DNA of 64,000 bases from Planctomycetota bacterium. GTDB taxonomy: Bacteria > Planctomycetota > MHYJ01 > WSZJ01. The DNA lies in assembly GCA_038060895.1 (NCBI GenBank), contig JBBTCT010000009.1, positions 80,082 through 144,081 of the forward strand, read 5' to 3'. Both the position numbers and the translations under genes were made by a program. The notes beneath the pieces are model-generated. The model did not search any database, was not told where the DNA came from, and worked only from the letters and a program-made list of their open reading frames with translations. The first letter of the stretch is position 1. Every line of letters begins with the position of its first letter. Shown here one piece after another: positions 45,403 through 49,127 of this stretch.

Positions 45403-46293
45403 ATGCCGCGTTCACCTCGAATCCTTATCACCCTCGGCGATCCCCTCGGCATCGGCCCTGAGATCGTCGCTGCCGCGAAGAAGGCGTTTCCCCACGCGAC
45501 CACCGTCGGACCGGGGGCTGACATCGGGGTTGAGTGCGAGAAATTGCCGAAGCGGCGCGGGCCCTGCGCCGAGGGCGGCGCGGCGGCAATTGCGGCGCTT
45601 CGCCGGGCCGCGGAAATGTGCCTGGCGGGGGAAGCGGACGCGGTCGTGACGGCGCCGATTTCGAAGGAAGCGCTGAAGCTTGCGGGGGAGCCGTTTCCGG
45701 GGCACACAGAGTTCTTCGCAAAAGTCTGCGCCGTCAAGCGGCCGGTGATGGCGTTCTCGGCCGGCGACCTGTTCGTCAGCCTGGCGACGATTCATGTCGC
45801 GCTGAAGCGCGTCCCCCTGGCGGTGACGCGCGAGGCCGTGCTGACCGCCATCGAGCGAACGGACAAGGCGTTGCGTGAATGGTTTGGCAAGCCGCGCCCA
45901 CACATCGCCGTGTGCGGCCTGAACCCGCACGCGGGCGAGAACGGGCTCTTCGGCCGCGAAGAGATCAAGGTCATCGGCCCGGCGATCGAGGAAGCCTGCA
46001 AAAAAAATATCAATGCCACCGGCCCTCACCCGGCCGATTCGCTCTTCGCAAAGCGCGATTTCGACGGCGCGGTCGCGATGTATCACGACCAGGGGCTGGT
46101 AGCCGTGAAAGCGCTCGCCTGGAAAACGGCCGTCAACCTGACGTTGGGGTTGCCCTTCGTCCGCACCTCTCCCGATCACGGGACCGCCTTCGACATAGCG
46201 GGTAAGGGCACTGCGGACGCCACGTCGATGCTGGAGGCCGTCCGTCTAGCCGATCGCATCGTGCGCAGGTCCTCAAGTTCGAGCCTCTTCTAA
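45403..46293 (+). CDS. pdxA: 4-hydroxythreonine-4-phosphate dehydrogenase PdxA
   Basis: GDP.GIGPE, TAPISK, FPGHTE, GLNPHAGE, MYHDQGL and RTSPDHGTAFDIAG motifs. Confidence 0.95.
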   Translation: MPRSPRILITLGDPLGIGPEIVAAAKKAFPHATTVGPGADIGVECEKLPKRRGPCAEGGAAAIAALRRAAEMCLAGEADAVVTAPISKEALKLAGEPFPGHTEFFAKVCAVKRPVMAFSAGDLFVSLATIHVALKRVPLAVTREAVLTAIERTDKALREWFGKPRPHIAVCGLNPHAGENGLFGREEIKVIGPAIEEACKKNINATGPHPADSLFAKRDFDGAVAMYHDQGLVAVKALAWKTAVNLTLGLPFVRTSPDHGTAFDIAGKGTADATSMLEAVRLADRIVRRSSSSSLF

Positions 46294-46438
46294 GCGCGCG
46301 GGGGCGGGCGACCGAAGGCGTGGAAGGGGGCTCTCGAATCGCTTCGCCCGATCGCGTCCGGAAAACCGCACATTGAAGGGAGCGAAGCGATTCGAGAGCC
46401 CCCTTCCACGCCGCAGGCCGCCCGCCCCCGCGCGCTTA
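46291..46438. repeat. 148-bp inverted repeat (MITE/REP-like) bounded by the stops of two convergent genes
   Basis: TAAGCGCGCGGGGGCGGGCG..GGCGTGGAAGGGGGCTCTCGAATCGCTTCGC and its reverse complement ending in TTA. Confidence 0.85.
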
Positions 46439-47731
46439 GGGGACATCCATCGAAATGTCCTGCTTTTTCCCGCCGCGCACGATCGTCAGCTTGATCTTCT
46501 GTCCGGGGAGAAATTTCTGACGGATCACGGAGAGGAAATCGGTCTCCTTGTCCGGCATGGGCTGGCCGTTAAGTGCGATGATGACGTCCCCTGCCCGGAA
46601 ACCGGCCATTCCCGCGGGTCCTTTGGGTCCCGCGTTCCTGACCTTGAGGCCGCCCGCGCGCAGTCCGGCGGCGCTGCGGTCGGCATCGGTCAGCGACTCC
46701 ATCTGCATGCCGAGACGGAGGTCGTTGGCGGAGGTCCGCCAGGTGAAGTCCGCGGCTTTGCGCCAGTCCCCCGCGATCGCGATCGAGAGAGCCTTGCACT
46801 CTGCGCCCCTCTGGACCTGGACCTTGAGCGTGGCCTGGTCCGGGGAGTTATGAAGCACGAACTGGAAATCTGCGATCGACAGCATCGGCGCGCCGTTGAT
46901 CGAGAGAATGACGTCGCCGGCCTGCGCGCCGGCCTTCGCCGCCGGAGTCCCCGCCGCGACCGAGGCGATCTTCGCGCCGTCCGCGACGTCGATCGTGATG
47001 CCGATCGCGTCCGGCATCGGGTAGACCCAGAGCAGGTTGTCCGGGATGGGCTTCTTGTCGGACATGCGAGAGCGGCGCACGCCTTTCCAGACGTGGTGGC
47101 AATGGATGCAGTTGCGCGGAATGTCCGGGTTCCGGAACTGGACTTCGATCGCGGGCATCTGCTCAGGCATCTTGCCCAGGTTCGAGGCTTTGATGTTCTT
47201 GGAAGCGAGCGAAGGACGGTTGGCCGGGTAGCCCTTGTGGATGGCGAGCGCTTTCGTCATCGCTTCCTTGAGTCCGCTCGTCGAAAAGAGCGAGTCGCCA
47301 CCGTCCCGGCGCGACCCGTACCGGCCGTAGACGGTCATGTCCGCATTGATGAAGAACCCGGCCCAGGAGAGGTCGAAGTCGAAATTGAAGATCGCGGTGT
47401 CGACGCCCCGCATCTGGATGATCCGAACGAGGACGAACCCCTTGCTGAGTTCGTCGAGCCCGTCGCCGAGACGCGCCACCTGCGCGTCAAACTTGTTACA
47501 GCTGACTCAGGGCACTCACCGGAAGACGACGAGAATCGGCTTGTTCTCGCGCTTCGCCCTGGCGACGGCGGAAGGGAGGTCGTCGTAGATCCACGCGGGG
47601 TTGATTTCGGTGTTGTCGTTGATCTTGTCGCGCTTTTCGGCCGGCGTGTCGCCCGCGGGGAGACGTGAAGCGACAAGGGTGGCGAGGAGAGCTGCGAGGG
47701 CAGAGGAAGCGAAGAGTTTTGGGCGAATCAT
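46436..47731 (-). CDS. Trx-like/PDZ-domain selenoprotein with two in-frame UGA (UxxU), CxxCH motif and signal peptide (431 aa)
   Basis: ORFs 47516-47731 and 46436-47479 are in frame and joined by FR-TGA-VP-TGA-VSC. SECIS-like hairpin; two PDZ repeats (PAAKAG..AGDVI). Confidence 0.85.
47470..47488 (-). promoter_or_regulatory. Bacterial SECIS-like hairpin
   Basis: GACGCGC-AGGTG-GCGCGTC, 18 nt after the second UGA. Confidence 0.75.
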
Positions 47732-47828
47732 AGGCGTGCCAGAAGGACGGAGGGAGTGCCGGAGCGTTACATCGGCGACCGGCGTCCATGGAGAGCGGAT
47801 GTAACTCCTTATGTATAAATGACTTGCA

Positions 47829-49127
47829 TCACGGCAGATCGAGGGAGATCTCCGCTTTCTTGCCGCCTCGGAGAATGGCGAATTTCAATTTCTGGCCCAC
47901 GAGGAACTTCTGGCGCAGAAGAGCCAGGAATTCCCTTTCGGTCGCCGGCACCGCCTGTCCGCCCACGCTCGTGAGGATGTCGCCGTCCTGGAACCCCGCT
48001 TTTTTCGCGGGGCTCTGCGGATACATCGGCTTGATCTTCAACCCGCCGTCCTTCAGCCCCGCAAGCTTCCGCTCGTCCGCAGTCAACACGTCGCTCTGGA
48101 ATCCGATGCGCAAGTCGTACGCCGAGTCGCGCCAGGTGAAGTCCGTGGACCTTCGCCAGTCCCCGCAGAGGTTCGCGGTCATGGTCTTTTTCCCGGCGCC
48201 GCGCAGCACGTCGATTTTCACGTTCTCGTTGTCTCCGCAGTTCTGCAGGAAAAACTGGATGTCCGCCAGCGACACGATCGGCGTCCCGTTCAGCGCTTCA
48301 ATTTCGTCCCCCGCCTCCACCCCGGCCTTGTCGGCGATCGAGTCCTTCACGACCTGGCGTACCTTCGTCCCGTCGGCAATCTCCATCTGCATTCCCCAGG
48401 AGTCGGGAAGCGGATAGAGGTAGATCAGCGTGTCGGGGAGCGCCTGCTTCGCGTTCATCATCGTGCGCCGGATCCCGCGCCAGACGTGGTGACAGTGGAT
48501 GCACTTCTTCGGCAGCTCGTCCTGTTTGAACTGGTCCGCGATCGCGGGCATGGTCTCGGGAAATTTCTGCGCGTACGGCTTCCCGGTTTTCGCCCTGAGC
48601 GCGGCCTTGTTGGCGGGGTAGCCCTTGTGGACGGCGAGCGCCCTGGTCATCGCGGCCTTGAGGCCGTCCACCGACATGAGCTGGTCTGACTTGTCCCGTC
48701 CCGCATTTCGCGACCCGTAGCGCCCGTAGATCGTGAGGTCGGCATTCAGGAAGATCCCGCACCATGTGAGGTCGTAGTCGAACTGGAACACCGACGTGTC
48801 GATCCCGCGCATCTGGATGACGCGAACGCAGACGAATTCCTTCGCCAGGTCCCCGAGTCCGCTCTCAAGACGGGCCACCTGCCCGTCAAACGTCTTGCAC
48901 GACGCTCACGGCACTCACCGGAACGCGGCAAGGACCGGCTTGTTTTCCTTTTTCGCCCGAGCGAGCGCCGCCGGCAGGTCGTCGTAGAGCCAGCCCGCTG
49001 CCAACTCGACCTTGTCGTTGACCTTGTCTTTCTTCTCGGCCGCAGGATCGCCTGCCGTGGTCGGCGACAGCGCCATCGCAAGGAGCACGACGGCGGAAAC
49101 GATAAAGAAGAATCGGGACGGGAGCAT
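47829..49127 (-). CDS. Paralogous Trx-like/PDZ selenoprotein with UxxU, CxxCH and signal peptide (432 aa)
   Basis: ATG at 49127 with AGGAG RBS; FR-TGA-VP-TGA-ASC at 48917-48897 continues in frame into ORF 47829-48878. Confidence 0.85.
48869..48887 (-). promoter_or_regulatory. Bacterial SECIS-like hairpin
   Basis: GACGGGC-AGGTG-GCCCGTC, 18 nt after the second UGA; compensatory change relative to the paralog. Confidence 0.75.

What the first reader, a model, noticed from the sequence alone, without database searches (positions are those of the whole stretch)
46436..49127. Tandem pair of candidate double-selenocysteine (UxxU) Trx/PDZ proteins hidden by two in-frame UGA codons
Seen: in both paralogs the frame reads F-R-TGA-V-P-TGA-x-S-C (TGA at 47518-47516 and 47509-47507; and at 48917-48915 and 48908-48906). 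The upstream and downstream parts are in frame and intact. The paralogs are otherwise clearly diverged yet keep both TGAs at the CxxC position of a thioredoxin-like fold, which argues against pseudogenisation. Established: UGA encodes Sec in redox motifs, and UxxU is known from selenoprotein L where it forms a diselenide. I recall a described Trx7/PDZ (seleno)protein family, so the family itself may be known. Inference: a U-x-x-U-x-x-C form in a tandem pair is the unusual part.
Basis: partly seen in the sequence, partly recalled or inferred. Interest (0 to 1): 0.9.

Follow-up and report, generated by a model that had tools for sequence, protein, structure and literature searches.

The report
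Tandem double-selenocysteine Trx/PDZ protein genes
Two neighbouring genes of a groundwater planctomycete encode secreted thioredoxin-like proteins whose redox motif is very probably written with two selenocysteine codons instead of two cysteines, a frequent but so far untabulated variant of a known selenoprotein family.

Summary
Two tandem minus-strand genes (49127..47829 and 47731..46436) each carry in-frame TGAs at the stated coordinates, giving F-R-U-V-P-U-x-S-C. Both proteins pass the NCBIfam model NF041199, "Trx7/PDZ domain-containing (seleno)protein". All 103 full-length database homologues have Cys at both columns.

Among 110 family members read from DNA, 48 are CxxC, 26 CxxU, 36 UxxU and none UxxC. 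A 7-bp hairpin with an A-G-G-U-K loop starts 18 nt after the second TGA. It is kept in 62 of 62 Sec forms (mean 6.8-6.9 of 7 pairs, with compensatory changes) and decayed in the 48 Cys forms (2.4 of 7). It fits the published bacterial SECIS model for both TGAs.

The genome has tRNA-Sec, selA, selB and selD. The 48 codons upstream of the TGAs are under purifying selection.

Verdict: real, intact selenoprotein genes, most likely with two Sec each, read through one SECIS. The family and bacterial UxxU motifs are both known. The two reviews whose tables I read list this family only as CxxU with one Sec, and the two GOS papers give it as CxxU and as CxxC/U. The tandem UxxU pair is therefore a new variant of a known kind, and public annotation truncates it. 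No protein-level evidence exists.

The parts
47829..49127 (-). Gene A: Trx7/PDZ selenoprotein, 432 aa plus TGA stop; AGGAG 8 nt before the ATG
   Evidence: NF041199 367.1 bits against a cut-off of 300; Thioredoxin_7 plus two PDZ
46436..47731 (-). Gene B: paralogue, 431 aa plus TAA stop, 54% identical to A
   Evidence: NF041199 370.6 bits; AlphaFold2 model with mean pLDDT 92.3
48915..48917 (-). Gene A, first TGA (U71), first position of the redox motif
   Evidence: the column is Cys in 103 of 103 database homologues
48906..48908 (-). Gene A, second TGA (U74), second position of the redox motif
47516..47518 (-). Gene B, first TGA (U72)
   Evidence: confirmed in independent DNA contigs
47507..47509 (-). 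Gene B, second TGA (U75)
   Evidence: confirmed in an independent DNA contig of run X3
48897..48899 (-). Gene A, third Cys (C77) of U-x-x-U-x-x-C
   Evidence: this Cys is kept in 61 of 62 Sec forms and 42 of 48 Cys forms
47498..47500 (-). Gene B, third Cys (C78) of U-x-x-U-x-x-C
48869..48887 (-). Gene A candidate SECIS: 7-bp stem GACGGGC/GCCCGUC with loop AGGUG, 18 nt after TGA2 and 27 nt after TGA1
   Evidence: the stem is predicted in the minimum-energy fold of the 58-nt stretch
47470..47488 (-). Gene B candidate SECIS: GACGCGC/GCGCGUC with loop AGGUG; the G-C pair of gene A is C-G here (compensatory)
47414..47593 (-). Gene B thioredoxin-like domain (Pfam Thioredoxin_7, residues 47-106)
   Evidence: fold nearest to AGR2, AGR3, ERp18, DsbH-type and DsbD-like thioredoxin domains
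48804..48992 (-). Gene A thioredoxin-like domain (residues 46-108)
47096..47110 (-). Gene B invariant C-x-H-C-H (C208, H210, C211, H212) in the helical linker; role unknown
   Evidence: invariant in 103 sequences and in 71 sequences
48489..48503 (-). Gene A C-x-H-C-H (C209 to H213)
46445..47005 (-). Gene B tandem PDZ domains (about residues 243-318 and 356-429)
   Evidence: fold matches the PDZ pairs of DegQ/DegP and RseP
47835..48392 (-). Gene A tandem PDZ domains (about residues 246-317 and 359-431)
47654..47731 (-). Gene B N-terminal hydrophobic leader (about 26 residues), a likely export signal
   Evidence: read by eye; modelled as a low-confidence helix 5-21; no signal-peptide predictor was run
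49053..49127 (-). Gene A N-terminal hydrophobic leader (about 25 residues), a likely export signal
   Evidence: read by eye; inference

Best explanation
Both genes are intact members of the Trx7/PDZ selenoprotein family (NF041199). Each mRNA is translated through two UGA codons 9 nt apart. The UGAs are read as selenocysteine by tRNA-Sec and SelB, directed by one SECIS hairpin inside the coding region. The hairpin stem starts 18 nt after UGA2. Its loop lies 25 nt from UGA2 and 34 nt from UGA1. The product is an exported protein with a thioredoxin-fold domain, a helical linker carrying an invariant C-x-H-C-H, and two PDZ domains. In place of the family's R-C-V-P-C-x-x-C motif it carries U-x-x-U-x-x-C. 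I infer that it works as a periplasmic thiol/selenol oxidoreductase: the two Sec cycle between selenols and a diselenide (or a selenenylsulfide with the third Cys), and the PDZ pair holds the client protein as it does in HtrA proteases. What is shown: the family membership, the Cys/TGA equivalence at both columns, the conserved covarying hairpin tied to TGA, the Sec machinery, and purifying selection on both sides of the TGAs. What is inferred: that both UGAs (and not only the second) receive Sec, the export, the diselenide chemistry and the client binding.
For: Family: NF041199 scores 367.1 and 370.6 bits against a cut-off of 300. Pfam gives Thioredoxin_7 plus two PDZ. The models are confident (pLDDT 92.3 and 90.4). 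The N-terminal domain is nearest to the thioredoxin folds of AGR2, AGR3, ERp18 and DsbH-type proteins. The C-terminal half is nearest to the DegQ/DegP/RseP PDZ pairs.

Cys/Sec pairs: 103 of 103 full-length database homologues have Cys at both columns. Of 110 non-redundant members read from DNA, 48 are CxxC, 26 CxxU, 36 UxxU and 0 UxxC.

SECIS: in 34 Sec forms, columns 37-43 pair with 49-55 in 95.8% of cells. Five of 7 pairs show compensatory changes. None of 500 shuffles reaches the observed values, and slid controls give 29-52% paired. In-register pairs average 6.83 of 7 (UxxU), 6.88 (CxxU) and 2.40 (CxxC), and 62 of 62 Sec forms have G at loop position 1 or 2. The hairpins fold at -10.2 and -9.4 kcal/mol (6 of the 7 pairs folded). 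The published bSECIS model asks for a 3-9 nt loop, a 4-16 bp stem, G in the first two loop positions, 16-37 nt from UGA to loop, and MFE of -7.5 or lower (PMC13188914, passage read). Both UGAs fit it.

Machinery: tRNA-Sec scores 71.7 bits with anticodon UCA. selA scores 541 bits, selB 310.7 plus 35.2, and selD 364 with its own TGA. All 20 searched genomes that carry a TGA form of the family (19 with a match over the cut-off, plus G012 with a partial one) also have selA. G034 has only CxxC copies, and no selA was found in it.

Coding through the TGAs: the 48 codons upstream of TGA1 have dN/dS of 0.07-0.25 against same-genus orthologues. The 48 codons downstream have 0.11-0.28.

Natural control: the gene A orthologue in G005 is C-P-P-C and has only 2 of 7 hairpin pairs.
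Against: No protein-level evidence exists: no selenium labelling and no peptide. UGA1 lies 34 nt from the loop, near the 37-nt upper limit of the consensus model. I recall that spacing is strict in E. coli, so decoding at UGA1 may be inefficient. The hairpin lies in codons for the conserved D-G-Q-V-A-R, so part of its conservation is protein constraint, although the CxxC forms show the peptide can vary once the TGAs are gone. The 58-nt fold around gene B is no more stable than shuffles (z = +0.43); only the local hairpin stands out. The genome is a metagenome-assembled one at 86.5% completeness, so a second recoding tRNA could be missing. The RNA-library contigs that cover parts of both genes do not prove transcription and say nothing about translation. 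The models were built with Cys in place of Sec.
Confidence: 0.8

Rival explanations
1. Only the second UGA is efficiently read as Sec. The first UGA is read as Cys by a tRNA-ReC-like tRNA with SelB, or by near-cognate read-through, so the mature protein is effectively CxxU.
For: A 2026 survey of UxxU-type [NiFeSe] hydrogenases reports tRNA-ReC-like genes enriched in genomes with UxxU motifs and raises this possibility (PMC13582414, passages read). Cys at position 1 is clearly functional, as in the 26 CxxU and 48 CxxC members. UGA1 sits 34 nt from the loop, at the edge of the 16-37 nt window.
Against: Apart from selC, no long-arm tRNA with anticodon UCA or GCA was found in the genome. The second ARAGORN 'tRNA-SeC' (C1:472898) lies inside a 480-aa ORF and has no Rfam hit at E up to 10. 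The other long tRNAs carry CCA, UGG, CUG, UCG and AGG, and the two tRNA-Cys are of normal length. TGA at position 1 recurs in 36 members and is scattered over the tree of 108 (the UxxU label needs 14 changes there, at least 8 of them forced by starred branches). That is hard to explain if it merely re-encoded Cys at a translational cost.
Confidence: 0.09
2. UGA1 acts mainly as a selenium-dependent gate. Most ribosomes terminate there, and full-length protein is made only when Sec-tRNA is plentiful. The double UGA is then regulatory as much as catalytic.
For: Two closely spaced UGAs must each win against release factor 2. One SECIS has to be reloaded with SelB within three codons (inference from the known mechanism). 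UGA1 is at the far edge of the spacing window.
Against: There is nothing direct. The position is exactly the catalytic Cys column, and homologues never put TGA elsewhere in the first 70 codons. The third paralogue (CxxU, L020) and the tandem pair coexist in one genome, so dosage control is not obviously needed.
Confidence: 0.07
3. The genes are pseudogenes, or only the 347-aa and 349-aa PDZ proteins that start after the TGAs are made, as public annotation has it.
For: Automatic gene calls for this locus and its nearest relatives are such truncated proteins (P0003-P0018, 324-356 aa, named PDZ/DHR/GLGF domain-containing).
Against: The same two codons are TGA in 36 members and Cys codons in the others. 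The upstream 48 codons are under purifying selection in this frame (dN/dS 0.07-0.25). The leader and the first half of the thioredoxin fold lie upstream and are needed for the fold. The covarying hairpin is present only with TGA.
Confidence: 0.02
4. The organism reads TGA as a sense codon throughout (an alternative genetic code).
For: None beyond the open frames.
Against: Gene A itself ends on TGA at the position where homologues end. The selA and selB frames contain no TGA. Homologues have Cys, not Trp or Gly, at the columns. The TGAs in family members sit only at the motif.
Confidence: 0.01

Closest known systems
Trx7/PDZ domain-containing (seleno)protein, NCBIfam NF041199 (earlier names: 'putative secreted serine protease MucD' selenoprotein of the GOS survey; 'PDZ domain-containing protein, pfam13899')
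   Same: It has the same family by HMM score. It has the same architecture: leader, Thioredoxin_7, C-x-H-C-H linker and two PDZ. Sec sits at the second motif position, and the SECIS sits at the same place as in the CxxU members.
   Different: The tables of the two reviews I could read list the family as CxxU with one Sec (PMC13188914; PMC9312934). The GOS papers give CxxU and CxxC/U (PMC2398784; PMC9402790). Here the first position is also TGA. I could not see the NCBIfam text, the figures or the supplements, which may show UxxU members.
SelL / Prx-like thiol:disulfide oxidoreductase with UxxU
   Same: It has a UxxU redox motif on a thioredoxin-superfamily fold. Bacterial members are tabulated as UxxC/UxxU with 1-2 Sec. 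I recall, but could not read, that one in-frame SECIS serves both UGAs and that a diselenide forms (Shchedrina 2007, not held).
   Different: It is a different family: no AhpC-TSA or Redoxin hit here. SelL has no PDZ domains, no third Cys at i+6 and no C-x-H-C-H.
[quoted passage not shown]
   Same: They form the same three-state series CxxC/CxxU/UxxU. The SECIS is unchanged between CxxU and UxxU, and one SECIS is proposed for both UGAs (PMC13582414).
   Different: They use a metal-ligand motif in a cytoplasmic enzyme. UxxC forms exist there (4 of 47) but not here (0 of 110).
HtrA/DegP/DegQ periplasmic proteases
   Same: The tandem PDZ pair is the best sequence and fold match, and a periplasmic location is likely for both.
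   Different: The trypsin-like protease domain is absent and a thioredoxin-fold domain takes its place. TIGR02037 scores 71.6 and 84.3 bits against a cut-off of 416.
AGR2 / AGR3 / ERp18 (secreted PDI-family single thioredoxin domains) and DsbH / DsbD-like domains
   Same: These are the nearest solved folds for residues 40-235 (Foldseek E 2e-5 to 8e-4, TM 0.59-0.68 on the target).
   Different: Sequence identity is 12-22%. They have no Sec, no PDZ and no C-x-H-C-H linker.

Membership tests
NCBIfam NF041199 Trx7/PDZ (seleno)protein | Whole-protein HMM score at or above the curated cut-off (300 bits) | tested here: met
   367.1 bits (gene A) and 370.6 bits (gene B), matching profile positions 2-389 of 390
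NCBIfam NF041199 Trx7/PDZ (seleno)protein | Architecture: Thioredoxin_7 domain followed by two PDZ domains | tested here: met
   Pfam PF13899 plus two stretches of PDZ_6/PDZ_2 in both proteins; confident model
NCBIfam NF041199 Trx7/PDZ (seleno)protein | Cys or Sec at the second position of the R-C-x-P-C/U motif (literature: CxxU, one Sec) | tested here: met
   TGA at the second position in both genes. In addition there is TGA at the first position, which the review tables do not list.
Bacterial selenoprotein gene | In-frame UGA aligned with Cys in homologues (Cys/Sec pair) | tested here: met
   Both columns are Cys in 103 of 103 database proteins and TGA or TGC/TGT in 110 of 110 DNA-read members
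Bacterial selenoprotein gene | Downstream SECIS that fits the consensus model (loop 3-9 nt, stem 4-16 bp, G in the first two loop positions, 16-37 nt from UGA, MFE -7.5 kcal/mol or lower) | tested here: met
   The hairpin has a 5-nt loop A-G-G-U-G and a 7-bp stem. It lies 25 nt from UGA2 and 34 nt from UGA1. It folds at -10.2 and -9.4 kcal/mol (6 of the 7 pairs folded). Model constraints are from PMC13188914. bSECISearch itself was not run.
Bacterial selenoprotein gene | Sec machinery (selA, selB, selC, selD) in the genome | tested here: met
   all four are above their cut-offs
Bacterial selenoprotein gene | Selenium shown in the protein | not testable with these tools
   This needs 75Se labelling or mass spectrometry
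SelL / Prx-like UxxU selenoproteins | Peroxiredoxin-like (AhpC-TSA / Redoxin) domain | tested here: not met
   No such Pfam hit at E up to 0.01. The nearest folds are AGR2, ERp18 and DsbH-type thioredoxins.
SelL / Prx-like UxxU selenoproteins | U-x-x-U at the redox motif | tested here: met
HtrA/DegP (the 'MucD' of the older name) | Trypsin-like serine protease domain | tested here: not met
   There is no protease-domain Pfam hit. The best-scoring stretches of the HtrA-type models lie in the PDZ region, and the whole-protein scores are far below cut-off.
c-type cytochrome | C-x-x-C-H haem attachment motif in a cytochrome fold | tested here: inconclusive
   The invariant C-x-H-C-H fits the bare motif. 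No cytochrome family hit was found, and haem attachment cannot be tested here.

The most novel reading that the evidence does not exclude
One fixed SECIS drives Sec insertion at two UGAs 9 nt apart. The result is an exported diselenide-forming U-x-x-U-x-x-C centre on a PDZ-tethered thioredoxin fold. The family is a natural three-state series (CxxC, CxxU, UxxU, never UxxC in 110 members, with at least 17 switches on the tree). In that series the order of Sec gain is dictated by the SECIS distance window: position 2 lies mid-window and position 1 at its edge. This would make the family a ready test bed for how bacterial SelB reloads on one SECIS, and for what a second Sec adds to a redox motif.
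Probability: 0.5. Interest if true: 0.6.

Novelty: new variant of a known kind. Interest (0 to 1): 0.45.

Why it matters
Annotation: gene callers cut these genes at the TGAs, so the nearest database entries are 324-356 aa "PDZ domain" proteins that lack the catalytic domain. About a third of the family members I read carry the double-TGA form, so many entries are affected.

Biology: double-Sec redox motifs are rare. I found them tabulated for only a few bacterial families. This family offers many independent CxxC/CxxU/UxxU switches with a SECIS that does not move. It also offers same-genus natural controls: the G005 orthologue has reverted to Cys with a decayed hairpin, and G034 has only Cys forms and no selA was found in it.

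That makes two open questions directly testable. The first is whether one bacterial SECIS can serve two neighbouring UGAs. The second is what a diselenide, or a Sec-Sec-Cys relay, does that a disulfide cannot do in the periplasm.

It is not a new kind of system. The family, the recoding machinery and the UxxU idea are all known.

Tried and rejected
Pseudogene or truncated-product reading: rejected, see the rivals.

Alternative genetic code: rejected.

Second tRNA-Sec or tRNA-ReC: ARAGORN called a second "tRNA-SeC" at C1:472898-472990. It has mismatches, lies inside a 480-aa ORF in 75% G+C DNA, and gets no Rfam tRNA or tRNA-Sec hit at E up to 10. I treat it as a false positive. The sub-threshold Rfam tRNA-Sec hits are Leu, Ser, Tyr, Trp or Pro tRNAs by ARAGORN.

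A second hairpin between TGA2 and the SECIS (columns 19-24 with 30-35): only 51.5% of cells pair in one register. Some members have it in shifted registers. It is not a conserved element.

Gene neighbourhood: the neighbours are a histone-deacetylase-family gene, pdxA, yebC, ftsW/rodA and a SnoaL-like gene. I saw no functional link.

Whole-protein fold search: it was dominated by the PDZ pair and said nothing about the N-terminal domain, so the N-terminal 196 residues were folded separately.

Role of the invariant C-x-H-C-H: not resolved.

Read laying: the TGAs of gene A and several other parts had no cover in the four runs laid, and I draw nothing from that. RNA-library contigs (X12, X13; at least 99% alike) cover 46652-46866, 47312-47472, 47856-48014 and 48544-48735. 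The tool warns that this does not show transcription, so I use it only as a weak hint.

The habitat labels of the runs (groundwater, aquifer) are as listed. Small-share runs were not used.

The tree is a FastTree tree that still contained the two motif columns (U counted as gap). The root is arbitrary, so gains and losses cannot be told apart. Of the 113 loci scanned plus the window stretch, 108 rows were used. Members shorter than 300 aa after cutting were dropped by the script.

Literature: searches (terms UxxU/selenocysteine/bacteria; selenoprotein/PDZ/thioredoxin-like/Planctomycetes; selenoprotein/Planctomycetota/two selenocysteine; Trx7/PDZ/selenoprotein) found no paper in the held library that describes a UxxU form of this family. 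I read passages only (find mode) of PMC13188914, PMC9312934, PMC2398784, PMC13582414 and PMC9402790. Figures and supplements were not seen, and those of PMC2398784 (Figure 6D, Dataset S2) could show such forms. Shchedrina et al. 2007 (SelL) was not held; I saw it only as a reference-list entry and otherwise recall it. Vargas-Rodriguez 2018 is known to me only through PMC13582414. Allo-tRNAs (Mukai 2017) are recalled.

Complex prediction, the protein-atlas search, the search of protein representatives and build_rna_model were not used.


Full report
OBSERVATION

The minus strand of 46436-49127 holds two head-to-tail genes.

- Gene A runs from the ATG at 49127, which follows an AGGAG, to the TGA stop at 47831-47829. 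It is 432 aa.
- Gene B runs from the ATG at 47731 to the TAA stop at 46438-46436. It is 431 aa.
- Read through, both give F-R-U-V-P-U-(A/V)-S-C.
- The two proteins are 54% identical over 409 residues.
- A contig from an independent DNA run of another study covers 47362-47799 without a single difference, so both TGAs of gene B are real sequence. The TGAs of gene A were not covered by the runs I laid.

WHAT THE PROTEINS ARE

- Both pass the NCBIfam equivalog model NF041199, "Trx7/PDZ domain-containing (seleno)protein". The scores are 367.1 and 370.6 bits against a cut-off of 300.
- Pfam sees a Thioredoxin_7 domain and two PDZ domains.
- AlphaFold2 on a 103-sequence alignment gives a confident model (mean pLDDT 92.3, pTM 0.88). 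The two motif positions sit in the loop between strand 66-71 and helix 76-86, the classical place of a thioredoxin CxxC.
- The C-terminal half matches the PDZ pairs of DegQ/DegP and RseP.
- Folded alone, the N-terminal 196 residues (pLDDT 90.4) are nearest to single-domain thioredoxin folds of AGR2, AGR3, ERp18, DsbH-type and DsbD-like proteins.
- There is no protease domain. HtrA models match only through the PDZ region and far below cut-off.
- Each protein starts with a short basic and hydrophobic leader. I read this by eye as an export signal; no predictor was run.
- An invariant C-x-H-C-H sits in the helical linker: C208, H210, C211 and H212 of gene B, invariant in 103 and in 71 sequences. 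Its role is open.

ARE THE TGAs SELENOCYSTEINE CODONS?

Four independent lines say yes.

1. Cys/Sec pairs.
- All 103 full-length database homologues have Cys at both columns (R-C-V/I-P-C), and 76 of them also have the third Cys.
- Read from DNA, the 37 members in this genome and 40 relatives are 24 UxxU, 10 CxxU and 3 CxxC.
- The 82 members in 80 species-representative loci are 46 CxxC, 19 CxxU and 17 UxxU.
- Pooled and made non-redundant, the 110 members are 48 CxxC, 26 CxxU, 36 UxxU and no UxxC. One spurious regular-expression match was dropped.
- Nothing but TGA, TGC or TGT occurs at either codon.

2. A SECIS.
- In an ungapped alignment of the 34 Sec forms, a 7-bp stem (consensus GACGGGC/GCCCGUC) with a 5-nt loop A-G-G-U-K occupies the same columns in every sequence. 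The stem starts 18 nt after TGA2 and 27 nt after TGA1.
- 95.8% of cells pair, and 5 of 7 pairs show changes on both sides (18 cells).
- None of 500 shuffles reaches the observed pairing or covariation. Slid controls pair at 29-52%.
- The two window genes themselves differ by a compensated pair: G-C in A, C-G in B.
- Across the pooled set the stem keeps 6.83 (UxxU) and 6.88 (CxxU) of 7 pairs, but only 2.40 in the 48 CxxC forms.
- All 62 Sec forms have G at loop position 1 or 2.
- The local hairpins fold at -10.2 and -9.4 kcal/mol. I folded a frame shifted by one base, so only 6 of the 7 pairs are in those figures. The full stem appears in the 58-nt minimum-energy folds.
- The published consensus model for bacterial SECIS elements asks for a 3-9 nt loop, a 4-16 bp stem, G in the first two loop positions, 16-37 nt between UGA and loop, and MFE of -7.5 or lower (PMC13188914, passage read). 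Here the loop is 25 nt from UGA2 and 34 nt from UGA1, so one hairpin fits both.

3. Machinery.
- The assembly (86.5% complete) has a tRNA-Sec that scores 71.7 bits with anticodon UCA.
- It also has selA (541 bits), selB (310.7 plus 35.2 bits), and selD (364 bits, itself with one TGA).
- Among 41 genomes of the class, selA was found in 36. All 20 genomes that carry a TGA form of the family have it. Of those 20, 19 have a match over the cut-off and G012 has a partial one.
- G034 has no selA found (88% complete), and both its copies are CxxC. Its two congeners have selA and UxxU or CxxU copies.

4. Selection.
- The 48 codons before TGA1 have dN/dS of 0.07-0.25 against same-genus orthologues.
- The 48 codons after the motif have 0.11-0.28.
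- The frame is therefore coding on both sides of the TGAs.

EVOLUTION AND CONTEXT

- A FastTree tree of 108 members needs at least 17 changes of motif state (shuffled mean 48.6). The UxxU label needs 14 changes, at least 8 of them forced by well-supported branches.
- Genes A and B each have UxxU orthologues in same-genus genomes, so the duplication predates the genus.
- The gene A orthologue in G005 (60% identical, same tandem position) is C-P-P-C, lacks the third Cys, and keeps only 2 of 7 stem pairs.
- A third paralogue elsewhere on the same contig is CxxU with the same hairpin.
- The third Cys is kept in 61 of 62 Sec forms.
- Tandem UxxU pairs also occur in other Planctomycetota (L096, L116).
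- The neighbouring genes are unrelated housekeeping genes.
- RNA-library contigs at least 99% alike cover four parts of the two genes. This is only a weak hint of transcription.

HOW IT MOST LIKELY WORKS

Shown: the mRNA carries two UGAs and one SECIS-like hairpin within the accepted distance of both, in a genome able to make and insert Sec.

Inferred:
- SelB with Sec-tRNA binds the hairpin and serves UGA1. It, or a second complex, then serves UGA2 three codons later, before the ribosome melts the stem.
- The exported protein is a thiol/selenol oxidoreductase. Its two Sec, at the start of helix 1, form a diselenide or, with Cys at i+6, a selenenylsulfide relay.
- The PDZ pair binds the client, as in HtrA proteins.
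- UxxC never occurs, and the hairpin does not move between CxxU and UxxU. This suggests that Sec is gained first at position 2 (mid-window) and only then at position 1 (edge of the window).

RIVALS

- A Cys-inserting tRNA-ReC at UGA1, as discussed for UxxU hydrogenases (PMC13582414), is not supported. No further long-arm tRNA with UCA or GCA was found. The genome is incomplete, so I keep this rival at about 9%.
- Inefficient decoding at UGA1 acting as a selenium gate is possible and untested.
- Pseudogenes, truncated products and an alternative code are each very unlikely.

COMPARISON WITH WHAT IS KNOWN

- It was later described as fused to PDZ with CxxC/U (PMC9402790).
- Two reviews tabulate it as CxxU, one of them with "1" Sec (PMC9312934; PMC13188914).
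- Bacterial UxxU is tabulated for Prx-like/SelL proteins, a metal-binding protein (NF041115), FmdB-family proteins and, recently, group 4 [NiFeSe] hydrogenases.
- My searches of the held library found no description of a UxxU form of the Trx7/PDZ family. Figures, supplements and the NCBIfam text were not visible to me.
- Public gene calls for the nearest relatives are truncated after the TGAs.

VERDICT

It is a new variant of a known selenoprotein family, not a new kind of system. The variant is common in nature. Interest is moderate (0.45). The value lies in correcting annotation and in a well-controlled natural series for studying double-Sec decoding and chemistry.

Noticed in passing
window 46290-46439: A 58-nt inverted repeat (93% complementary, 34 nt between the arms) fills the whole gap between the convergent genes pdxA (+, ends 46293) and gene B (-, ends 46436). 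Its arms reach into both stop codons. It is probably a bidirectional terminator hairpin.
   Followed up: partly
G000 contig C22:273515-273721 (loci L002 and L006; outside the window): Two tandem, well-formed long tRNA-like genes of 94 and 97 nt. Each has an 8-bp acceptor stem and a long variable arm, with anticodons CCA and UGG. They score 45.6 and 39.7 bits on Rfam tRNA-Sec, just under the cut-off of 47. They resemble allo-tRNAs (recalled from the literature). They are not tRNA-ReC candidates.
   Followed up: partly
G000 contig C22, tRNA genes numbered 13-31 at about 196.1-198.3 kb (outside the window): ARAGORN numbers the tRNA genes it calls in this 2.2-kb-wide stretch 13 to 31. The genome total is 85 tRNAs, with many anticodons duplicated. 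This may be a tRNA array or a mobile element.
   Followed up: no
G000 C9:313939-315108 (-), locus L020 (outside the window): A third Trx7/PDZ paralogue belongs to a distinct subfamily (Y-H-R-Y-G-G instead of Y-G-R-Y-G-S). It has C-E-S-U and the same SECIS. Orthologues in congeners are CxxU or UxxU.
   Followed up: partly
G000 C39:13200-13367, C1:199050-199229 and C4:13062-13220 (outside the window): Three further short Thioredoxin_7-like matches each have one in-frame TGA. One lies about 300 nt from the tRNA-Sec gene. selD also carries a TGA. The organism seems rich in selenoproteins.
   Followed up: no
window 47096-47110 and 48489-48503: An invariant C-x-H-C-H sits in the linker of every family member examined. 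It fits the bare haem-c attachment motif CxxCH but has no family assignment. It could be a haem or metal site next to the redox centre.
   Followed up: partly
loci L048 and L069 (G034) against L046/L070 (G019) and L045/L066 (G038): Within one genus, the genome in which no selA was found has only CxxC copies, and its two congeners have UxxU or CxxU copies. L069 still keeps 5 of 7 stem pairs by my own count from the printed sequence, which suggests a recent Sec-to-Cys switch.
   Followed up: partly
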